Translations under genes and position numbers: made by a program | The notes under the pieces: generated by a model | What the model was told of the DNA's origin: nothing | The model's database searches: none | Seen by the model: the letters and a program-made list of their open reading frames with translations, nothing else | From: a virus | Taxonomy: Duplodnaviria > Caudoviricetes | Length of the DNA stretch: 52,141 nt | IMG/VR virus record: IMGVR_UViG_3300031957_000416 | Span: 1 to 52,141 of that record | Reading direction: 5' to 3' (one strand) | Part shown: positions 14,763 through 30,153 of the stretch, piece by piece | Layout: each line of letters starts with the position of its first letter | Position numbering within the stretch: the first letter of the stretch is position 1

Positions 14763-16378
14763 TAGTATCCAAACATCCTATCTGCTGGTGTATATTGTTT
14801 ATTAGAATTAAAACTTGATAAGCCAATTCCGTGTGGATTAATGGGGCGAGACATGCATCCATATCTTAGTGCATCGTAAGCATGATCTTCTGCGTGCGTA
14901 TCAACATCTTCTGGATTGTTTTTATCGCATGGTAAAAGTGGTAGTGTTCGTATTAAGTTAACACAGTTGTTAAAAATAAATAACGATGGTTTAGCTTCAT
15001 TATTTTTTTCTCTAACAGATAGTCGTTTGTGTATTTCCAGTTTACCGTTGATACGACTTCTTGGTGATCTATCCGATGGTCTCCATCTACATCCTGTGTT
15101 GATCATCGTTTCTGCAATACTTGGACCAACATCACCTCTTCGTGCCCAAGTACTTGAATCTAGAACTCCATATCTTATATATTCTTTATGTTCTAAATCT
15201 AAAACTTGTTGTGCAAATAAATCTGCTGTAACTTTTTTTGTGTACAATTCTCTATAGATATATAAATTATTATCAAAATCTATAGCAAACCATAATACAC
15301 AAGCAGGTGAAGAATATCCCCAGTCACATGCTCTAAACTTATGCCAGTTTCTAGGTAGTTCAAATGGTTCTAAAACATGAACCGCTTTGTTAAACTCTGG
15401 GAAAGCTGCATCTTCATACGCTCCCCAATCTCCATCTAGAAATTGTTTTCTTTGCACTTCAGGCAAAGAAGCTAGCATAATATAATAATCCTCTGTTTGC
15501 ATCAGATATGGATTATCTTGTAACTTAGCTGGTATAAATCTTCTTGTTATCTTTTTATTACCAACTGGAGTTTGTATATCAATATCAAACTTTGTATTAG
15601 GCACCGCTGGATCTACAAACATTTCTTTTACCCAAGTAGATCCTACATTTCCCGGGTTACCTGTTGCTCTCATAAACACTGGTATATCTGGATCAACTGA
15701 TCTAAGAGATGATCTTAGAAAGTTATAGATATCAGGAGTTGAATATTGTGGTAACTCATCAATTCCAATCCATGTATAAGACTGACCTTGATATCTAAGT
15801 GCGTCAGTAGTGTTTTCAGCATATCCAAATTCTATTTTAGCACCTGATGGAAATCTCCATTCTTTTTCCTGCTCTCTCCATTTAGCTCCAGGAAACGCTT
15901 TTGGATACAATTGTTGAGAATGATTTATTAAATCTCTCAACTCAGGCATAGAACGTCTAATCAATAGTGCTCTATGTTTTTGCCTATCACAATATCGTAG
16001 TGGATCAATAAGCATTGCATATGACTTACCACCACCTCTTGCTCCACCATAAAATACTTCACGTTCAGATGCTGCTAAGAACTGTGTTTGAGGCCCTTCA
16101 TTTGGTTTAAAGATTACTTCTTGTTCTTTAACAGCCTCTTTTACATTTGGTGGAACGTTATCTAATTCTTCTTCAACAAATATATTTTCTTTATTCTCTA
16201 ATATATTATCAGCTTTTTGTATAGCTTCTTTTTTATTTTTTAATTTCTTTTGTGCATTATGATAATTATCTTTTGCTTTTTGTACTTGTTTAGCTATATC
16301 ACTAATGCTAGCCTTTGCTGATCTTTTTGCTTTAGCTACTTTTTTCTTTTTAGGTTTAGGCGGTAGAACATCATTCAC
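14762..16378 (-). CDS. terL: Terminase large subunit
   Basis: Walker A YGGARGGGKS, Walker B IGIDE, RATGNPG, and nuclease motifs DWG and DHAYDALRY. Confidence 0.95.
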   Translation of the reverse strand: MNDVLPPKPKKKKVAKAKRSAKASISDIAKQVQKAKDNYHNAQKKLKNKKEAIQKADNILENKENIFVEEELDNVPPNVKEAVKEQEVIFKPNEGPQTQFLAASEREVFYGGARGGGKSYAMLIDPLRYCDRQKHRALLIRRSMPELRDLINHSQQLYPKAFPGAKWREQEKEWRFPSGAKIEFGYAENTTDALRYQGQSYTWIGIDELPQYSTPDIYNFLRSSLRSVDPDIPVFMRATGNPGNVGSTWVKEMFVDPAVPNTKFDIDIQTPVGNKKITRRFIPAKLQDNPYLMQTEDYYIMLASLPEVQRKQFLDGDWGAYEDAAFPEFNKAVHVLEPFELPRNWHKFRACDWGYSSPACVLWFAIDFDNNLYIYRELYTKKVTADLFAQQVLDLEHKEYIRYGVLDSSTWARRGDVGPSIAETMINTGCRWRPSDRSPRSRINGKLEIHKRLSVREKNNEAKPSLFIFNNCVNLIRTLPLLPCDKNNPEDVDTHAEDHAYDALRYGCMSRPINPHGIGLSSFNSNKQYTPADRMFGY

Positions 16379-16604
16379 TTCTTGATAGCACCTTTCTTAA
16401 ACCTGGAGCAGAAATATATCTGCCTGTTTTTCTTTGCATCCATCCAGCAACTTCTCGATAGGAACAACTTTTAATATAATTTTTTGCCTGTTCTATAGCT
16501 TCAAGTTCTTCTGGAATTGGCTCTAATACTTTATCATCCTCTTCATTAACTTTATAACCAAAAGGAATTGTTCTTGATACTCTTTTTTTAAGTCCTAGTG
16601 TCAT
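16371..16604 (-). CDS. Small HTH-like DNA-binding protein
   Basis: IPFGY...SYREVAGW...ISAPGLRK, between terS and terL. Confidence 0.65.
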   Translation of the reverse strand: MTLGLKKRVSRTIPFGYKVNEEDDKVLEPIPEELEAIEQAKNYIKSCSYREVAGWMQRKTGRYISAPGLRKVLSRSE

Positions 16605-16984
16605 GCTTCTTTTGGTGGTAGTATGAATATCCCGTGTGCAACTTTTGCATTAATATCTATTTTTTCTTTTTTAACTAGTCCTACTCTATCTAATATTTGT
16701 TTAGCTGCTTCCATTCTAATATTAGCACCAGGTATAGATCCATCATCATCAATTGCATTGGCCATGCTAATTGCAGCTTTGGGTGAATGTGCTGCTAATA
16801 CCATTTCGGCACGTTCTATGATTTGGTCTTTTAAACCTTGTACCACTTTTGGATATGAGGTGGGAGCATAGCCAGCAATTTCAGCTGCTGTTCTTGGCTC
16901 ACCATTGGCCTCACCAAATAAAGCAGATAGAAATAGTTTTTGCTTCTCAGTTAATTCTGTACTTTCTTTTTTATCTAGAAGCAT
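16601..16984 (-). CDS. terS: Terminase small subunit
   Basis: LTEKQKLFL...AAEIAGY helix-turn-helix and AAKQILDRVG. Upstream of terL. Confidence 0.8.
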   Translation of the reverse strand: MLLDKKESTELTEKQKLFLSALFGEANGEPRTAAEIAGYAPTSYPKVVQGLKDQIIERAEMVLAAHSPKAAISMANAIDDDGSIPGANIRMEAAKQILDRVGLVKKEKIDINAKVAHGIFILPPKEA

Positions 16985-24139: not shown

Positions 24140-24676
24140 ATGAATATATTTTTTTTAGATAAATTACCAGAGAAGTCAGCAGAGATGTTGTGTGACAAGC
24201 ATGTACCTAAGATGTTACTTGAGACATGCCAGATGTTATCAACTGCGTATCAACGACACATGGGAGAACATGAAGAGCTCTACAAATCAGCATACCCTAA
24301 ACACCCTATGACAATATGGGTTGGAGATTCTCAAGCAAACTTTGATTGGTCATTTGATCACGCAGTAGAGATATCAAAGCAGTACGATAAGAGATTTAAA
24401 AAAGAACACAAGTCAAAGAAAATACTCCAAGTCTTAGCGAGAGAATACATATTAGATACTATAAAAATTCCAGACATAGGATTTACTGAACCACCACAAT
24501 GTATGCCAGACACTTACAAATGTGATGACTATGTAAAAGCATATAGAGATTACTATTGGAATGATAAAGATTACTTTGCCAAATGGGACAAAGGTGTTGA
24601 TATGCCTGATTGGTGGTGGGATAGAATGCTAGGCATAAAGATAAAGCTAGTTGACACAAACAAACAAATCGCCTAG
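24140..24676 (+). CDS. Pyrimidine-dimer DNA glycosylase (DenV-like family)
   Basis: MNIFFLD...CDKHVPKMLLETCQMLST, YK...HPMTIW and PPQCMPD...AYRDYY. Confidence 0.8.
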   Translation: MNIFFLDKLPEKSAEMLCDKHVPKMLLETCQMLSTAYQRHMGEHEELYKSAYPKHPMTIWVGDSQANFDWSFDHAVEISKQYDKRFKKEHKSKKILQVLAREYILDTIKIPDIGFTEPPQCMPDTYKCDDYVKAYRDYYWNDKDYFAKWDKGVDMPDWWWDRMLGIKIKLVDTNKQIA

Positions 24677-24679
24677 GAT
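24651..24679 (+). promoter_or_regulatory. sigma70-like promoter
   Basis: TTGACA-17 nt-TAGGAT, then a 6 nt gap to the ATG. Confidence 0.65.
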
Positions 24680-24685
24680 AATAGT

Positions 24686-25366
24686 ATGAAAAAAAATTAC
24701 TCACAAGTATCTTTAGATAAGATTAAAAACGGTCACACCATCTACACAAAGACTATCAAGGTGGTGGAGTTCTATCCATACAAAGCTCTTAAACCTGTTA
24801 TCAATAAGAAGTTAGGTAAGAAGGTGAGCAAGGGTATGCACAAGGATAGGCCTATATTCACATTAACGTTAGAGGAGAGGGCTACATGCCCTCGTACTTG
24901 TGGGCATTGGGATGATTGTTATGGCAACAACATGCCCTTTGCTCACAGGATATCTCATGGCAACGGGCTAGTTCACAAGCTATACACAGATCTCACAGAG
25001 ATACAGAAGAAGCATGAGAAGTTTCTTGTAAGACTTCATGTACTTGGAGATTTCTATTCAGTAGATTATGTACAGTTTTGGGAGAGATGTCTTGATAAAT
25101 TTCCTGGGCTTGCTATCTGGGGATACACACATTGGCACCCAGGTACAGACATAGGAGATGAGATTAAGAGAATACGCACAGCACAATGGGATAGATTCTC
25201 AATACGATTTTCAGATTATACCAGAGATATACTATCAGCTAACTCAGAAGAGATAGCAGAGAAAGGTGTAGTATGTCCAGAACAGACAGGCAAAGCCAAG
25301 AGCTGTGCCGACTGCGGTCTGTGTTGGTCCATGAAGAAGCAATCAGTTATATTTAAAACACATTGA
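24686..25366 (+). CDS. GP88-like Cys-rich (putative Fe-S) protein
   Basis: TCPRTCGHWDDCY, VRLHVLGDF and C-terminal CPEQ...CADCGLCW. Confidence 0.7.
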   Translation: MKKNYSQVSLDKIKNGHTIYTKTIKVVEFYPYKALKPVINKKLGKKVSKGMHKDRPIFTLTLEERATCPRTCGHWDDCYGNNMPFAHRISHGNGLVHKLYTDLTEIQKKHEKFLVRLHVLGDFYSVDYVQFWERCLDKFPGLAIWGYTHWHPGTDIGDEIKRIRTAQWDRFSIRFSDYTRDILSANSEEIAEKGVVCPEQTGKAKSCADCGLCWSMKKQSVIFKTH

Positions 25367-26067: not shown

Positions 26068-26284
26068 CCCACAATCTGTAGATTGTTTTTACAGAAATAT
26101 GTATAACTATTACAAGGAAGGGCACGAGAGAGATATGGCTAAAAAAAAGAAAGAAGAAGATTGGTGGGATACTCATCTAATTATAGATGGTGTAGATGAA
26201 GCAACTGCAAAGCAGATAAAAAACAAACTCAAGAAGAAACTAGAAAAGGAATTGACTCGAACAAATGGTAAAACCCAAAGCTAG
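26054..26284 (+). CDS. Hypothetical protein
   Basis: 76 aa ORF. An internal start at MAKKKK is possible. Confidence 0.5.
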   Translation: MKGSSPQSVDCFYRNMYNYYKEGHERDMAKKKKEEDWWDTHLIIDGVDEATAKQIKNKLKKKLEKELTRTNGKTQS

Positions 26285-27347
26285 CTATAGTGGTAGTGTT
26301 CGTGTCAGGGAGCAGGTTAGTAGTCGTGCCTGCTCCCAAACTAAACTTACAACAATAGATTTATTTTCAGGCATAGGCGGATTCGCACTAGGCTTAGAAG
26401 GAACAGGATACTTTGAAACTATACAGTTTGTAGAGATGGATAAGTTCTGTCAAAAAGTATTAACTAAAAACTTTAAAGGAGTACCAATACATGAAGATGT
26501 CAAAACCTACAATCCCCCAACAGCTGACGTTGTCGTTGGAGGATTCCCTTGTCAAGGATTCTCAGTTGCAGGAAAAAGAAAAGGCACAAGTGATGACCGC
26601 TATCTCTGGCCAGAGATGTTACGAGTCATTAGAGAAGCAAAACCGAGGTGGGTTATTGGAGAAAATGTGCGAGGAATTATTAACATCGAAGACGGCATGG
26701 TATTCAAACAAGTGCACTCTGACTTGGAAGAAGAAGGCTTCCAAACAAAATGTTTCGTACTTCCAGCTGCTAGCGTCAACGCACCGCACCAAAGATACAG
26801 AACGTTCTTCATCGGACAAAGTATGGAGAACTCCAGACGCCCATTGCAGTCGAGGAGCATCAAGCAAGAAGAGAATGAAAAAGAAAATAAAGGAGGGACT
26901 GCCCATAAGTCTGAACGATCAGGTAGCACACGAGAAGATGTTGTGGCCAACAGCGACAACAGATACAACAGACAGGAAGAAGAAGTATGCACAAGGGGGA
27001 ACACCTCTAAGCCTGGCAGTGAAGATGTGGAGAACTCCTCAAGCATCAGATCACAAGAACATGGACACGGCAAATCAAGTGATGTTATCAACTCAAGTCA
27101 AGATGTTTCAGACACCTACAACGAGAATACACAAGGACAGTGGCAAGGGGAAGTGCGAAGTGAACAGGAAGTCTCCTACGTTAGCGATGCAAGCTGGTGG
27201 GAGTTTGAACCCCAGGTGGGTAGAGTGGCTAATGGGATTCCCGATAGATCACACAGACTTAAATCATTAGGTAATGCCGTAGTACCACAGTTAATATATC
27301 AATTAGGAAAAGCTATAGGAGTTGCGGAAGGACTTGACAAGAAATAA
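26265..27347 (+). CDS. DNA (cytosine-5) methyltransferase, catalytic (alpha-like) chain lacking motif IX
   Basis: Motifs I (DLFSGIGG), IV (GGFPCQGFS), VI (ENV), VIII (HQRYRTF) and X (LGNAVVP). Confidence 0.9.
   Translation: MVKPKASYSGSVRVREQVSSRACSQTKLTTIDLFSGIGGFALGLEGTGYFETIQFVEMDKFCQKVLTKNFKGVPIHEDVKTYNPPTADVVVGGFPCQGFSVAGKRKGTSDDRYLWPEMLRVIREAKPRWVIGENVRGIINIEDGMVFKQVHSDLEEEGFQTKCFVLPAASVNAPHQRYRTFFIGQSMENSRRPLQSRSIKQEENEKENKGGTAHKSERSGSTREDVVANSDNRYNRQEEEVCTRGNTSKPGSEDVENSSSIRSQEHGHGKSSDVINSSQDVSDTYNENTQGQWQGEVRSEQEVSYVSDASWWEFEPQVGRVANGIPDRSHRLKSLGNAVVPQLIYQLGKAIGVAEGLDKK
26491..27270 (+). CDS. Nested +1-frame methyltransferase partner (beta-like) chain
   Basis: AAAGGAG 9 nt before the ATG. 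Four W/F-x-T-P/A repeats. Motif IX-like LNPRWVEWLMGFP. Confidence 0.8.
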   Translation: MKMSKPTIPQQLTLSLEDSLVKDSQLQEKEKAQVMTAISGQRCYESLEKQNRGGLLEKMCEELLTSKTAWYSNKCTLTWKKKASKQNVSYFQLLASTHRTKDTERSSSDKVWRTPDAHCSRGASSKKRMKKKIKEGLPISLNDQVAHEKMLWPTATTDTTDRKKKYAQGGTPLSLAVKMWRTPQASDHKNMDTANQVMLSTQVKMFQTPTTRIHKDSGKGKCEVNRKSPTLAMQAGGSLNPRWVEWLMGFPIDHTDLNH

Positions 27348-28166: not shown

Positions 28167-29356
28167 TTAAATTACTACTCAAAAAAAATTTTTATGAAAA
28201 GAATAAAGGTAAAGTATCTAAGACTACATTTAGTAATGGATTAGGAAACTTTTTTTCTACAATAGAAAGAGCACATCATGATTATGAAGATGATCTAACT
28301 ATAGATGATCTTATAAATTTACATACAGAAAAGTATAATCCTGCACTTACAAGGGCAGCTAAATTAAACTTTGAAACTTTAGTACAAGAGATAAAGAAAG
28401 AGCAAGAGCCTAACGCAGCAGTTGCTTCAGATATTATTGAAGCTGTACATAAAAGAAACTTAGCACACAAAGTTGCAGTTATAGCTACAGATATATTTAA
28501 CGGACAAGACAAATCTTTTAATGAAATCAAACAGTTATTAGATGGCACAGAAGAAGAAGCAGATGAGCACCAATCAGTTACGGAAGATATACCAGAGCTT
28601 ATAGACTCATTAGATATACAAACTAAATTTCAATTTAACCTACCAAGTTTACAAGAACAAGTTCCAGGTATTGGACCTGGCAATTTAGTTATTGTGTTTG
28701 CAAGGCCAGAGTCAGGTAAGACTGCGTTCTGGGTTAATCTTGTTGGTGGGCTACAAGGTTTTGCATCGCAAGGTGCGAAAGTCTGTGCATTAATAAATGA
28801 AGAACCTGCAGTCCGTACTCAGATGAGAGTCATCAATGCACATACAGGCATGACAAAAGATGAGATAATAGATAATATGGATTTAGCAAAAGAAAAATGG
28901 AAGGAGATAAAAGATAATGTTAAACTTTTGGACACTGTTGATTGGACTATTGATGATGTCGATAGTTTTTGTAAGCATCACAGGCCCGATATACTTGTCA
29001 TTGACCAGCTAGATAAAGTTAATATGTCTGGTAATTTTACTAGAACAGATGAGAAACTTAGAGCTGTATACACAGGGGCAAGAGAGATAGCTAAACGACA
29101 CGAGTGTTGCGTGGTAGCAATATCACAAGCATCAGCAGATGCACATGGTAAGACCAGAATATCATTTGATATGATGGAGAACTCAAAGACAGGTAAAGCT
29201 GCAGAGGCAGATTTAATTATAGGGATAGGTAAGCACGGCACTTTAGATTCCTTGGATACTACTAGGGTTATGTGCATAAGTAAGAATAAGATATCTGGAT
29301 ATCATGGAGAGATTACTTGTAACATTGAGCCACAACTATCGAGGTACAGAGTATGA
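28148..29356 (+). CDS. Replicative DnaB-like (SF4) helicase
   Basis: Walker A ARPESGKT, ILVIDQLD, ISQAS, EADLIIGIG and KNKISG. Confidence 0.9.
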   Translation: MQERQLIKLLLKKNFYEKNKGKVSKTTFSNGLGNFFSTIERAHHDYEDDLTIDDLINLHTEKYNPALTRAAKLNFETLVQEIKKEQEPNAAVASDIIEAVHKRNLAHKVAVIATDIFNGQDKSFNEIKQLLDGTEEEADEHQSVTEDIPELIDSLDIQTKFQFNLPSLQEQVPGIGPGNLVIVFARPESGKTAFWVNLVGGLQGFASQGAKVCALINEEPAVRTQMRVINAHTGMTKDEIIDNMDLAKEKWKEIKDNVKLLDTVDWTIDDVDSFCKHHRPDILVIDQLDKVNMSGNFTRTDEKLRAVYTGAREIAKRHECCVVAISQASADAHGKTRISFDMMENSKTGKAAEADLIIGIGKHGTLDSLDTTRVMCISKNKISGYHGEITCNIEPQLSRYRV

Positions 29357-30153
29357 AAAAGCTAACAGTAATATCATTGGGTGCAGGAGTACAATCAAGT
29401 ACCATGGCACTAATGGCAAATAATGGCCTCATAGATCCTATGCCTACCTGTGCTATTTTTGCAGACACACAAAATGAACCCAAATATATATATGAATACT
29501 TAGAGTATCTAAAGGGCATATTAAAGTTTCCTGTGTACACAGTAACAAAAGGAAACATAAAAGAGGACATGCTAAAGCCCACTACTGGAGGTTATACCTT
29601 TCCTACTGCACCTTTCTATACTCTAAAGAATGGAAAGAAAGGCATGGTCATGCGGCAGTGCACAAATGACTACAAGATTCAAGTTATAAGAAAAAAAATT
29701 AGGGATCTTTTAGGGCTAAAAAGATATCAGCATGTAAAAAAAGATATGTTTGTTGAGCAATGGATAGGCATATCTACAGATGAAATTGCCAGAAAAAAAC
29801 CAGCCAGAGACAAGTTCATAACTAACAGATGGCCTCTTCTTGAAGAGACAATGAATAGGCAAGATTGCATTGATTGGATGAAAGAGCATGGGTATAAAAT
29901 GCCAGAGAAAAGTGCATGTAATATGTGCCCATTTCATGATGACAAATACTGGGCTAACCTTAAAAAGAATCACCCTGAAGAATTTGCTGACGCTGTTGAT
30001 ACAGATACCAAAGTAAGAAATCTTGGAAGAGATAAAGATGCAGAACTATTTATACATAAAACTTGCAAGCCACTATCTGAGGTTAAATTTGACACGGAAG
30101 AAGACCAATTAGATATGTTTGATAATGCCTGCGAGGGTATGTGCGGAGTTTAA
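29353..30153 (+). CDS. PAPS-reductase-like (adenine nucleotide alpha-hydrolase) protein
   Basis: PP-loop-like ISLGAGVQS, IFADT, RQCTNDYKI, WIGISTDE and KSACNMCPF. Confidence 0.72.
   Translation: MKKLTVISLGAGVQSSTMALMANNGLIDPMPTCAIFADTQNEPKYIYEYLEYLKGILKFPVYTVTKGNIKEDMLKPTTGGYTFPTAPFYTLKNGKKGMVMRQCTNDYKIQVIRKKIRDLLGLKRYQHVKKDMFVEQWIGISTDEIARKKPARDKFITNRWPLLEETMNRQDCIDWMKEHGYKMPEKSACNMCPFHDDKYWANLKKNHPEEFADAVDTDTKVRNLGRDKDAELFIHKTCKPLSEVKFDTEEDQLDMFDNACEGMCGV

What the first reader, a model, noticed from the sequence alone, without database searches (positions are those of the whole stretch)
26820..27200. Four tandem W/F-x-T-P modules: a possible modular specificity array in the nested MTase chain
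Seen: VWRTPDA...SLNDQV, LWPTATT...PLSLAV, MWRTPQA...MLSTQV and MFQTPTT...TLAMQA. Each has conserved ends and a variable middle. DNA-level echoes are visible (GTATGGAGAACTCC, GATGTGGAGAACTCC, AAGATGTTGTGG, AAGATGTTTCAG). Known: multispecific Bacillus phage MTases (SPR, phi3T) carry tandem target-recognition domains between motifs VIII and IX. Inference: each 25-40 aa unit is a swappable mini target-recognition domain. Placing them in a second frame could let the array expand or shuffle while the catalytic frame only gains linker, giving an adjustable anti-restriction system.
Basis: partly seen in the sequence, partly recalled or inferred. Interest (0 to 1): 0.8.

Follow-up and report, generated by a model that had tools for sequence, protein, structure and literature searches.

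The report
Cassette repeats in nested methylase subunit
The four W/F-x-T-P repeats are real and belong to a second protein encoded in the +1 frame inside a phage DNA cytosine methyltransferase gene, most likely the enzyme's separate DNA-recognition subunit, whose repeat cassettes are gained, lost and exchanged even between closely related phages.

Summary
Observation confirmed. Four modules (VWRTP, LWPTA, MWRTP, MFQTP; nt 26821-27195) lie in a 259-codon ORF (26491-27270), which sits in the +1 frame inside a C5-methyltransferase gene (26265-27347).

The nested ORF is a real gene ("beta"):
- It has 5232 relative clusters and matches PHROG 1008.
- It keeps the same +1 layout in 83 of 84 phage loci and 72 of 80 bacterial loci.
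- It has its own Shine-Dalgarno site.
- Substitutions peak at beta-frame wobble positions across the repeat region.

The outer "alpha" frame there is an unconstrained linker, predicted disordered, yet it stays stop-free (0 of 20000 synonymous recodings do). A complex model docks beta on alpha (ipSAE 0.89, best control 0.00).

The modules are not recent duplicates. They are four distinct old cassette types. Each type occurs once per protein in 323 of 325 relatives, in a largely fixed order, and 14 of 17 close gene pairs differ in cassette content. The nearest relative lacks exactly module 3, which is flanked by an 11-nt direct repeat.

Closest known is two-chain M.EcoHK31I. The Bacillus-phage multispecific enzymes are an analogy only, with no sequence similarity. 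Whether each cassette is an autonomous mini-TRD is untested. This scan has noted the nested layout before on other DNA.

The parts
26265..27347 (+). alpha ORF (360 aa): C5-cytosine methyltransferase catalytic chain. It carries motifs I-VIII, a ~125-aa low-complexity linker, then the motif X block.
   Evidence: ORF list. Pfam PF00145 E 3.1e-50 over aa 29-351; TIGR00675 E 4.5e-46; phrog_363 E 1.1e-76. In the AF2 model the N-domain and C-terminal helices reach pLDDT above 90, while aa ~194-314 score 30-50 with no secondary structure.
26474..26480 (+). Shine-Dalgarno-like AAAGGAG, 10 nt upstream of the beta ATG, inside the alpha coding sequence
   Evidence: Read directly from the sequence. An SD-like 4-mer lies at -18..-5 of the beta ATG in 47 of 60 loci, against 222 of 973 other ATG triplets inside the same alpha genes (Fisher p 2.8e-18).
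26491..27270 (+). beta ORF (259 aa), +1 frame, fully nested in alpha
   Evidence: ORF list. phrog_1008 E 2.6e-31 over aa 7-257. phmmer of aa 111-259 found 5232 clusters at E<=1e-3. Same +1 layout in relatives.
26491..26820 (+). beta N-terminal domain (aa 1-110), encoded over alpha motifs IV-VIII; predicted alpha-docking part
   Evidence: Conserved in the 67-sequence alignment A1, with W79 and L93 invariant. The beta frame stays open here in 0 of 20000 synonymous recodings of alpha. Alpha wobble divergence drops from 31% to 12% in this overlap. Predicted contacts involve beta 54-95.
26821..26940 (+). module 1 (VWRTPDA...DQVAHEKM, 40 aa), cassette type T0
   Evidence: T0 occurs in 106 proteins, once each. 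Median identity to the window copy outside the core is 66%. The core residues 110-120 are the only module residues confidently placed against alpha.
26941..27024 (+). module 2 (LWPTATT...PLSLAVK, 28 aa), cassette type T1
   Evidence: T1 occurs in 90 proteins, once each; median identity 62%.
27025..27102 (+). module 3 (MWRTPQA...MLSTQVK, 26 aa), cassette type T6; absent from the closest relative L006
   Evidence: T6 occurs in 17 proteins; median identity 69%. The alignment with L006 has one 78-nt gap at window 27022-27099.
27103..27195 (+). module 4 (MFQTPTT...TLAMQA, 31 aa), cassette type T2, the usual last cassette
   Evidence: T2 is terminal in 59 of 64 occurrences. It is a looser cluster, with median identity 29%.
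27196..27270 (+). beta C-terminus GGSLNPRWVEWLMGFPIDHTDLNH plus stop. This is the most conserved beta block and a candidate motif IX equivalent. The same DNA encodes alpha's EPQVGRVANGIPDRSHRLKSL in frame 0.
   Evidence: P241, E245 and L247 are invariant and nine further positions are at least 90% conserved. Predicted contacts run from beta 237-259 to the alpha motif X helix. In six in-frame forms this block lies directly upstream of the motif X block. There is no Pfam or PDB profile match.
26821..27200 (+). alpha-frame linker (about aa 186-312): sequence unconstrained but kept free of stops
   Evidence: In aligned close pairs, amino-acid identity is alpha 0.71, third frame 0.72 and beta 0.90. 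The alpha frame has 0 stops here, against a mean of 10.5 after synonymous recoding of beta (open in 0 of 20000); the third frame has 10 stops. pLDDT is 30-50.
27018..27028 (+). direct repeat AGTGAAGATGT, left junction of module 3
   Evidence: its partner is at 27096-27106, 78 nt away.
27096..27106 (+). direct repeat AGTCAAGATGT, right junction of module 3
   Evidence: The 78-nt indel relative to L006 falls between the two copies.

Best explanation
The locus encodes a two-chain DNA cytosine-5 methyltransferase from one stretch of DNA read in two frames.

Alpha is frame 0 (26265-27347). [quoted passage not shown] Beta is frame +1 (26491-27270). It is started independently at its own Shine-Dalgarno site and ATG.

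Beta has three parts: an N-terminal domain that docks on the edge of alpha's sheet near motifs VII-VIII, the four W/F-x-T-P modules, and a C-terminal helix (WVEWLMGF) that packs on alpha's motif X helix. Anchored at both ends, the module array spans the place where single-chain enzymes hold their target-recognition domain. I infer that it is the DNA-recognition region, which alpha itself lacks.

The four modules are distinct, old cassette types (T0-T1-T6-T2) rather than fresh duplicates. Cassettes are gained, lost or replaced between related phages, probably by recombination at the short conserved junction (..V-K-M-W-P-T-P..). This would retune what the orphan phage methylase protects against.

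Shown here:
- the two frames, their conservation and the selection on each;
- the SD enrichment;
- cassette typing and turnover.

Predicted only: the alpha-beta docking. Inferred: the DNA-recognition role and the anti-restriction role.

Whether the cassettes act jointly as one composite recognition surface (my lean, about 45%) or each alone (about 30%) is open.
For: (1) Architecture.
- Beta is +1 to alpha in 83 of 84 phage loci examined: 79 IMG/VR loci, 4 GenBank phages and the window, with L007 dropped as partial. The 84th, L079, is a tandem second copy that is +1 to its own alpha relic.
- The alpha frame is open from the catalytic domain to motif X in 83 of 84.
- In bacterial genome contigs, 72 of 80 loci are nested the same way.

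(2) Selection, from 16 independent pairs of related loci. Differences at alpha codon positions 1/2/3 were:
- 70/34/276 where only alpha codes;
- 202/63/58 in the module region (chi-square p 1.4e-27); alpha position 1 is the beta wobble;
- 29/17/71 after the beta stop.
Amino-acid identity in the module region was beta 0.90, alpha 0.71 and third frame 0.72. Window against L006 gave 30/11/9.

(3) Both frames are kept open.
- Alpha stayed open in 0 of 20000 synonymous recodings of beta and in 33 of 20000 own-codon permutations.
- Beta stayed open over alpha motifs IV-VIII in 0 of 20000 recodings and 164 of 20000 permutations.
- The third frame has 1039 stops across 66 loci and is open in 0 of 66.

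(4) Independent start. SD-like 4-mers occur at 47 of 60 beta ATGs against 222 of 973 control ATGs.

(5) A free-standing extra beta gene lies beside a nested pair in L165, and a second beta with 6 modules in L079.

(6) Structure.
- AF2 predicts the alpha linker as disordered.
- The complex model scored ipSAE 0.89 against 0.00 for the best of 3 controls. That mark was reached by 58 of 80 solved complexes and 2 of 110 mismatched pairs.
- The runs agree in at least 66% of contacts, and the partner pLDDT is at least 62.

(7) Cassettes.
- 325 proteins gave 1175 modules in 410 clusters (286 singletons) and 246 architectures.
- 323 of 325 proteins have no cassette type twice.
- Order is conserved: T0 before T1 18:0, T0 before T2 28:0.
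- 14 of 17 close gene pairs (79-97% nt identity) differ in architecture.

(8) L006 differs from the window by exactly module 3, which is flanked by the 11-nt repeat.
Against: - No experiment exists on this or any close relative.
- Beta alone folds poorly (mean pLDDT 58). Foldseek gave nothing at E<=0.001. The beta profile hits no PDB sequence at E<=10 and no Pfam or NCBIfam family. Calling the array a TRD and the C-terminus motif IX therefore rests on position and on a recalled pattern.
- The complex model places only the first module's core against alpha. It may also score high from likeness to solved single-chain C5-MTases, as the tool itself warns. The alignments used were my own.
- For M.EcoHK31I the literature assigns the predicted TRD to alpha and only motif IX to beta (PMC2836561 and PMC3404938, passages read). 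That is the opposite division of labour.
- In the overlap with alpha motifs IV-VIII, the beta frame is only slightly better conserved than the third frame (0.86 against 0.83).
- Cassette typing depends on my own boundaries and thresholds. Some 'different' types may be related.
- The protein set is enriched for relatives of this window and includes fragments.
Confidence: 0.66

Rival explanations
1. Each W/F-x-T-P unit is an autonomous mini target-recognition domain, so the alpha/beta enzyme is multispecific. It would methylate one motif per cassette, as the SPR, phi3T and SPbeta enzymes do with tandem TRDs, and cassette exchange would add or remove protections one at a time.
For: - Each cassette type is conserved across many proteins while its neighbours differ. 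For example, T0 is followed by T1 (14 times), T2 (11), T14 (6), T8 (6) and T19 (5).
- Each type occurs once per protein in 323 of 325.
- Single cassettes come and go between near-identical genes: window against L006, and L017 against L019 at 95% nt identity. That is easiest if units work alone.
- Cassettes keep a sequential order. This is recalled as a feature of the Bacillus-phage enzymes from the title of Wilke et al. 1988, seen only in the reference list of PMC8936443.
- Tandem TRDs giving several specificities in Bacillus phage MTases are stated in the Discussion passage of PMC8936443.
- Module lengths (median 37 aa) are near the roughly 40-aa TRD size that I recall.
Against: - No detectable similarity exists between the beta profile and the SPbeta multispecific enzyme (hhalign probability 0.1%). 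Only a short PT-x-T core looks alike by eye.
- T0 and T2 behave like fixed first and last anchor modules rather than free units: T2 is terminal in 59 of 64, and the T0 core contacts alpha in the model.
- Some betas have 0 or 1 module, for example the nested betas of L079 and L165.
- No specificity data exist for any member.
Confidence: 0.3
2. Beta binds alpha but is not the sequence reader. The modules would be flexible, basic, non-specific DNA-backbone binders or a tether, making a clamp for a low-specificity methylase. Alternatively beta is a regulator or assembly factor.
For: - The variable middles are rich in G, K, S, R, A and T.
- AF2 predicts them as mostly coil with short helices at low confidence.
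- Module number ranges from 0 to 9 without loss of the gene.
Against: - Type-specific sequences are held at 62-69% median identity across distant proteins.
- The region evolves under purifying selection in the beta frame. A mere spacer would not need that.
- Alpha has no constrained region of its own that could read sequence.
Confidence: 0.12
3. One polypeptide is made by two programmed ribosomal frameshifts: alpha frame, then +1 into the modules near 26815, then -1 back before motif X near 27250. This would give a canonical I-VIII / TRD / IX / X enzyme.
For: - The motif order along the DNA would then be canonical.
- Metagenomic proteins exist that run from the alpha frame into the beta frame: P0028, P0029, P0113 and P0121.
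- In some relatives the beta C-terminal block and the motif X block are in one frame: P0026, P0039, P0054, P0070, P0103 and L066.
Against: - The alpha frame is kept stop-free through the whole module region by selection (0 of 20000 recodings). A shifting ribosome would not need that.
- The beta frame is conserved and open for 110 codons upstream of the supposed shift site, and has its own SD and ATG.
- The four chimeras switch frame at four different places, as errors or mutations would.
- By eye I see no slippery heptamer or shift-prone stop at either junction.
- A free-standing beta gene exists.
Confidence: 0.04
4. The +1 frame is not a gene. Its openness and motifs would be a by-product of alpha's codon usage or a relic of an ancestral frame.
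For: Over alpha motifs IV-VIII and the pre-X block, some beta-frame conservation must follow from alpha's own conservation (regions II and IV).
Against: - In the module region the substitution pattern is that of a beta-coding gene: 202 of 323 differences fall at the beta wobble.
- There are 5232 relative clusters.
- Openness is far beyond chance.
- SD sites are enriched.
Confidence: 0.01

Closest known systems
M.EcoHK31I (E. coli HK31, YGGCCR), a two-polypeptide C5-methyltransferase. Source: Lee, Kam and Shaw 1995, as described in PMC2836561 (Introduction and Results passages read) and PMC3404938 (Background passage read). The 1995 paper itself was not held.
   Same: Beta is encoded entirely inside the alpha gene in another reading frame. 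Alpha carries motifs I-VIII and X. Both chains are said to be needed for activity. Internal ATGs start beta.
   Different: There the predicted TRD is assigned to alpha and only motif IX to beta (176 aa as I recall). Here alpha's variable region is an unconstrained, disordered linker, and beta (259 aa) carries an N-domain, a cassette array and the conserved C-terminal block. It is treated in print as a rare exception, whereas this layout is in hundreds of loci.
Multispecific C5-methyltransferases of Bacillus phages (M.SPRI, M.Phi3TI, M.SPBetaI, M.H2I), with tandem target-recognizing domains. Source: Discussion passage of PMC8936443 read; the primary papers were seen only as references, and PMC457134 was not held.
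   Same: These are phage-borne orphan C5-MTases with a row of short recognition units at the position between motifs VIII and IX. The units are optional and ordered, and different phages carry different subsets.
   Different: They are single polypeptides read in one frame. The beta profile shows no detectable similarity to the SPbeta enzyme (probability 0.1%). One specificity per unit is shown by experiment there and is untested here.
M.AquI (CYCGRG), with alpha and beta subunits from adjacent genes. Source: PMC3404938 Background passage.
   Same: It is a natural split C5-MTase in which the small subunit carries the distal variable region. The variants L066, L131 and L162 of this family, where alpha stops after motif VIII and beta runs on through motif X, have that division.
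   Different: In the window, motif X stays on alpha and the beta gene is fully nested rather than adjacent.
Type I restriction-modification HsdS specificity subunits (recalled general knowledge)
   Same: A separate specificity polypeptide serves a catalytic methylase. Recognition parts are exchanged by recombination at conserved junctions. Extra specificity genes can sit beside one catalytic gene, as in L079 and L165, which carry two betas.
   Different: The fold and chemistry are unrelated (N6-adenine). HsdS has two large TRDs, not a row of 26-40-aa cassettes, and there is no frame overlap.
PHROG families phrog_363 (alpha) and phrog_1008 (beta), both labelled 'DNA methyltransferase'
   Same: The window's two ORFs match them at E 1.1e-76 and 2.6e-31. 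Some GenBank phages annotate both overlapping CDS, for example Paenibacillus phage Tadhana TADHANA_54 and TADHANA_55.
   Different: These are labels only. No description of the nesting, of a subunit role or of the cassettes turned up in my searches.

Membership tests
M.EcoHK31I-type two-polypeptide C5-MTase (beta nested in alpha) | Beta ORF lies wholly inside the alpha gene in a different reading frame | tested here: met
   Beta 26491-27270 is +1 inside alpha 26265-27347. The same holds in 83 of 84 phage loci and 72 of 80 bacterial loci.
M.EcoHK31I-type two-polypeptide C5-MTase (beta nested in alpha) | Alpha carries motifs I-VIII and X | tested here: met
   PF00145 profile positions 2-322 of 324 match alpha aa 29-351. 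Motif patterns I, IV, VI and X fall at aa 34, 95, 133 and 336 (the patterns themselves are recalled).
M.EcoHK31I-type two-polypeptide C5-MTase (beta nested in alpha) | Beta carries motif IX | tested here: inconclusive
   The conserved block LNPxWVEWLMGFPxGWT lies directly upstream of the motif X block in six in-frame forms. It packs on the motif X helix in the model. However, there is no PF00145 match for beta or for those forms, no PDB profile hit, and no alignment to motif IX of the SPbeta enzyme.
M.EcoHK31I-type two-polypeptide C5-MTase (beta nested in alpha) | Alpha carries the target-recognition domain | tested here: not met
   Alpha's variable region evolves like the third frame (identity 0.71 against 0.72) and is predicted disordered.
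M.EcoHK31I-type two-polypeptide C5-MTase (beta nested in alpha) | Both polypeptides are required for methylation | not testable with these tools
   Only a docking prediction is available: ipSAE 0.89 against 0.00 for the best control.
M.EcoHK31I-type two-polypeptide C5-MTase (beta nested in alpha) | Sequence homology to M.EcoHK31I alpha and beta | not tested
   No tool returned the M.EcoHK31I sequence. The 1995 paper was not held and supplements are closed.
Multispecific Bacillus-phage C5-MTases (SPR, phi3T, SPbeta type) | Tandem TRDs within one polypeptide between motifs VIII and IX | tested here: not met
   The modules are in another frame and chain. Only 2 of the 120 listed near-length relatives carry PF00145, and none of the 5 longer ones does.
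Multispecific Bacillus-phage C5-MTases (SPR, phi3T, SPbeta type) | Sequence similarity of the units to known TRDs | tested here: not met
   hhalign of A1 against the SPbeta MTase (L167:1135-2466) gave probability 0.1% and E 0.51, with the aligned stretch outside the TRD region.
Multispecific Bacillus-phage C5-MTases (SPR, phi3T, SPbeta type) | Units are optional, kept in a sequential order, and differ between related phages | tested here: met
   There are 246 architectures in 325 proteins. Order is conserved (T0 before T1 18:0, T4 before T0 14:1). 14 of 17 close pairs differ.
Multispecific Bacillus-phage C5-MTases (SPR, phi3T, SPbeta type) | Each unit confers one target specificity by itself | not testable with these tools
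   This needs methylome reading of deletion and swap constructs.
C-5 cytosine DNA methylase, Pfam PF00145 (alpha only) | Match above the curated cut-off | tested here: met
   171.9 bits against a cut-off of 22.
M.AquI-type split (alpha I-VIII; beta variable region plus IX-X) | Motif X lies on the small subunit | tested here: not met
   In the window GNAVVP is in the alpha frame after the beta stop. It is met only in the variants L066, L131 and L162.

The most novel reading that the evidence does not exclude
C5-methyltransferases of thousands of phages and prophages have a dedicated specificity subunit (beta) built from a library of at least two dozen short W-P-T-P cassettes. Each cassette would read its own DNA motif. 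Phages would then assemble multispecific anti-restriction methylases combinatorially by microhomology recombination at the V-K-M-W-P-T-P junctions, while synonymous codon choice keeps the overlapping catalytic frame open. This would be a cytosine-methylase counterpart of Type I HsdS shuffling, hidden in a second reading frame.
Probability: 0.3. Interest if true: 0.85.

Novelty: new variant of a known kind. Interest (0 to 1): 0.66.

Why it matters
Textbook C5-methyltransferases are monomers, and the two-chain enzymes M.AquI and M.EcoHK31I are cited as exceptions (PMC3404938). Here the nested two-chain layout is the rule for a very large phage and prophage family, and the recognition part is a cassette array that turns over between near-identical genes.

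If the cassettes set specificity, three things follow:
- It would explain how phage orphan methylases keep pace with host restriction systems.
- It would give a natural parts list for retargeting cytosine methylation.
- Studies that clone 'the methylase ORF' would be unknowingly co-expressing a second protein.

It also matters for annotation. Beta has no Pfam or NCBIfam model and is mostly uncalled or labelled hypothetical. It is also a clean, large example of two proteins under selection in overlapping frames over up to 1.5 kb (L069).

Tried and rejected
- Pfam, NCBIfam and PDB sequence searches with beta or its profile found nothing.
- AF2 of beta alone was too uncertain to use (pLDDT 58). 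Foldseek against PDB with that model gave no match at E<=0.001, and the top rows are meaningless.
- Pfam on six forms with the beta C-terminus and motif X in one frame gave nothing, so the motif IX identity stays open.
- hhalign against the SPbeta multispecific enzyme showed no similarity.
- The 'longer' protein search for fused single-chain forms found 5 proteins among 1321 candidates, none with PF00145. This is weak evidence against common fused forms among close relatives.
- I first read L079 as an un-nested alpha-then-beta pair. Searches showed it is a tandem second nested copy whose alpha phase has lost motifs I-IV and motif X, so I withdrew that argument. L165 does have a free-standing extra beta.
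- Literature: 'WPTP' plus methyltransferase returned 13 papers, none relevant by title among the 10 listed. The nested or embedded gene terms with cytosine methyltransferase gave nothing relevant. The Paenibacillus phage paper does not discuss the overlap in the passages found. The 1995 EcoHK31I paper and the 1988 TRD-order paper are not held.
- The M.BatI paper (PMC8936443) reports an unusually short TRD. An earlier scan note mentions an unnamed '2022 enzyme study'. I could not check whether M.BatI belongs to this family.
- Not attempted: k-mer or restriction-site avoidance analysis, RNA or read evidence, and any test of translation.
Full report
**1. Observation.**

The window is a whole virus record of 52141 bases. 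At 26265-27347 (+) lies a 360-codon ORF that matches Pfam PF00145, the C-5 cytosine methylase family, at E 3.1e-50 over aa 29-351. Inside it, one base downstream in phase, lies a 259-codon ORF at 26491-27270.

- VWRTPDA... from nt 26821;
- LWPTATT... from nt 26941;
- MWRTPQA... from nt 27025;
- MFQTPTT... from nt 27103.

Four [WF]xT[PA] matches in 149 residues were reached by 0 of 100000 shuffles. The whole window has only 21 such matches in six frames.

The DNA echoes are real but short: two 11-mers, each present twice. There is no DNA-level tandem repeat.

**2. The nested ORF is a gene found in many phages.**

tblastn of the module region against GenBank phages hit 55 records. The best was Phage C72C1 at 52% identity, E 6e-19. 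In each of the four records I opened, the match lies +1 to the annotated methyltransferase CDS. These were C72C1, Paenibacillus phage Tadhana, Acinetobacter phage ABMM1 and Lacticaseibacillus phage R9.1. Tadhana even annotates the nested CDS.

Wider searches agree:
- An all-against-library phmmer search found 5232 clusters at E<=1e-3 and 475 at E<=1e-10.
- PHROG phrog_1008 covers beta aa 7-257 at E 2.6e-31. Pfam and NCBIfam have nothing.
- Of 120 listed near-length relatives, most are unnamed or 'hypothetical', and 2 carry PF00145.
- None of the 5 longer relatives carries PF00145.

I then surveyed frames in 84 loci: 79 IMG/VR loci, the 4 GenBank phages and the window. L007 was dropped as partial.
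- Beta is +1 to the catalytic domain in 83.
- The alpha frame is open from the catalytic domain to the motif X block in 83.
- The beta frame is open from its N-domain through the repeats in 81. The other 3 gave no N-domain match.
- The beta stop-to-stop span lies wholly inside alpha's in 70.

There are two exceptions. In L066, alpha stops after motif VIII and beta runs on through motif X. L079 holds two tandem copies, discussed in section 5.

In bacterial genome contigs from many phyla, 72 of 80 loci are nested in the same way.

**3. Both frames are under selection, each in its own way.**

I compared 16 independent pairs of related loci (79-97% nt identity) and counted differences at alpha codon positions 1/2/3:

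| Region | Differences at alpha positions 1/2/3 |
|---|---|
| Alpha only, 5' | 70/34/276 |
| Alpha motifs IV-VIII over beta N-domain | 118/49/204 |
| Module region | 202/63/58 (p 1.4e-27) |
| Alpha pre-X over beta C-end | 39/19/26 |
| Alpha only, 3' (after the beta stop) | 29/17/71 |

Alpha position 1 is the beta wobble position. The module region therefore evolves as a beta-coding gene. In the overlap with motifs IV-VIII, the alpha wobble rate falls from 31% to 12%.

Amino-acid identity in the module region was beta 0.90, alpha 0.71 and third frame 0.72. The window against its closest relative L006 shows the same pattern, 30/11/9.

Yet alpha is not free to close:
- Synonymous recoding of beta's module region keeps alpha open in 0 of 20000 trials, with a mean of 10.5 stops. 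Permuting beta's own codons keeps it open in 33 of 20000.
- In L069, both frames stay open over 502 codons; alpha stayed open in 0 of 5000 recodings.
- Conversely, recoding alpha over motifs IV-VIII keeps beta open in 0 of 20000, and in 164 of 20000 by permutation.
- The third frame has 1039 stops in the beta spans of 66 loci and is open in none.

An SD-like 4-mer precedes the beta ATG in 47 of 60 loci. It precedes 222 of 973 other ATG triplets in the same genes (p 2.8e-18). In the window, AAAGGAG sits 10 nt before the ATG at 26491.

**4. Predicted structure.**

AF2 models alpha as three parts:
- a confident catalytic domain;
- about 120 residues with pLDDT 30-50 and no secondary structure, which is exactly the stretch that overlaps the modules;
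- confident C-terminal helices.

Beta alone is poorly predicted, with mean pLDDT 58. Short helices sit at the ends of the modules.

The complex job scored 0.89, with 0.00 for the best of 3 controls. That mark was reached by 58 of 80 solved complexes and 2 of 110 mismatched pairs. The runs agree in at least 66% of contacts and the partner pLDDT is at least 62.

Contacts join:
- beta 54-95 to alpha's strand before motif VIII;
- beta 237-259 to the motif X helix;
- the core of module 1 (110-120) to alpha.

This supports docking but does not show it. The score may partly reflect likeness to solved single-chain enzymes, and the alignments were my own.

**5. The modules are cassettes.**

From 325 beta-type proteins I cut 1175 modules, with a median length of 37 aa. 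These proteins were database hits plus translations of the loci; some are fragments and all are relatives of this window. I clustered the modules on the sequence outside the 5-residue core.

Results of the typing:
- There are 410 clusters, 286 of them singletons. The largest hold 106, 90 and 64 members.
- Each large cluster has one member per protein. 323 of 325 proteins carry no type twice.
- The window reads T0-T1-T6-T2. Its modules are 3-26% identical to each other outside the core.
- Each window module has a median identity to same-type modules elsewhere of 66% (T0), 62% (T1) and 69% (T6). T2 is looser at 29%.

Context and order:
- The same type appears with many different neighbours, and there are 246 architectures.
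- The order is largely fixed: T0 before T1 18:0, T0 before T2 28:0, T4 before T0 14:1.
- T2 is last in 59 of 64 occurrences.

Turnover is fast. Of 17 close gene pairs, only 3 share an architecture and 8 differ in module number. L006 is 98% identical to the window in the adjacent alpha domain, yet lacks exactly module 3. The gap is 78 nt at 27022-27099. That module is bracketed by the direct repeat AGT[G/C]AAGATGT, which encodes the V-K-M junction. This points to junction microhomology as the route of gain and loss.

Two loci carry a second beta with a different cassette set next to a nested pair:
- L079 has a nested beta with 1 module and a downstream beta with 6. The downstream copy's alpha phase has lost motifs I-IV and motif X.
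- L165 has a nested beta plus a free-standing beta with 3 modules and no alpha relic.

**6. Reading.**

The best-supported account is a two-chain enzyme. Alpha supplies catalysis. Beta, started on its own, is held at both ends on alpha and presents the cassette array where single-chain enzymes have their recognition domain. Alpha has no constrained region that could read DNA.

The DNA-reading role is inferred, not shown. I lean to the array acting as a composite surface with anchor cassettes (T0 first, T2 last) and exchangeable inner ones.

A double programmed frameshift is unlikely for four reasons:
- alpha is kept open through the module region;
- beta is conserved for 110 codons upstream of the supposed shift site and has its own SD;
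- the four alpha-to-beta chimeric database proteins switch frame at four different places;
- a free-standing beta gene exists.

Alpha's sequence is indeed indifferent there, but every cassette must be stop-free in alpha's phase.

**7. Comparison with what is known.**

- M.EcoHK31I is described as having beta encoded wholly inside alpha in another frame. Alpha holds motifs I-VIII, X and the predicted TRD, and beta holds motif IX (PMC2836561 and PMC3404938, passages read). The layout is the same. The division of labour differs, and I could not test homology.
- M.AquI is split between the variable region and motifs IX-X (PMC3404938). It resembles the minority variants L066, L131 and L162.
- Bacillus-phage multispecific enzymes have tandem TRDs giving several specificities (PMC8936443, Discussion passage). 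The resemblance is in organisation only. hhalign of the beta profile against the SPbeta enzyme gave probability 0.1%.

My searches found no paper describing W-P-T-P cassettes or the breadth of the nested layout. These cover only the held open-access library.

**8. Earlier notes of this scan.**

After I had stated my reading, look-ups showed that the scan has reported the nested alpha/beta layout on at least eleven other genomes, always with M.EcoHK31I as closest known. One note describes a Nocardia plasmid single-chain methylase with one to eight similar modules.

These agree with my reading and are not independent evidence.

Noticed in passing
window 27190-27290: The same DNA encodes two family-conserved motifs in two frames. 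Beta reads N-P-R-W-V-E-W-L-M-G-F-P and alpha reads E-P-Q-V-G-R-V-A-N-G-I-P, with the x-P and G-x-P positions coinciding. In other relatives (P0026, P0039, P0054, P0070, P0103, L066) the two motifs lie one after the other in a single frame. How the overlapped form arose is unexplained.
   Followed up: partly
L079:187-1955 and L165:1293-2814: One alpha gene is accompanied by two beta genes with different cassette sets. In L079 the second beta still carries an open alpha-phase ORF (1061-1936) that lacks motifs I-IV and has a degraded motif X. This looks like a snapshot of a duplicated nested gene becoming beta-only.
   Followed up: partly
L069:2471-3976 (also P0020): A 502-aa beta contains a non-repeat insert of about 145 aa (cluster T17, ...EDSLKHATKLLQGK...HWFRKD...) between W-x-T-P cores. 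The alpha frame stays open across the whole 1.5 kb. The function of the insert is unknown.
   Followed up: no
window 29353-30153; L001:3174-3848: An ORF about 2 kb downstream of the methylase gene has no Pfam hit at E<=0.01. It is weakly similar (pairwise E 5e-8, 25% identity) to the annotated phosphoadenosine-phosphosulfate reductase that also sits just downstream of the nested methylase in Phage C72C1. This may be a recurrent gene neighbourhood.
   Followed up: partly
L002 (KT997847.1 16128-16964): The nearest GenBank relative at DNA level is an uncultured deep-sea Autographiviridae phage (72.6% identity over 345 nt). It annotates its methylase as two consecutive short CDS (16128-16370 and 16377-16964), so that copy may be split or truncated. 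I did not examine it further.
   Followed up: no
window 24140-25366: Upstream genes include a T4 endonuclease V-like pyrimidine-dimer glycosylase (PF03013, E 1.1e-5) and a GP88/DUF7227 protein. Downstream lie a Toprim primase-like gene and a DnaB-like helicase. No restriction endonuclease gene is evident next to the methylase, so it looks like an orphan.
   Followed up: no
phage records: The alpha-type catalytic domain is found in 1520 GenBank phage records at E<=1e-10, 492 of them Mycobacterium phages. Several Mycobacterium phages list two 'DNA methylase' features under the same match. This suggests the nested pair is already annotated there without comment.
   Followed up: no
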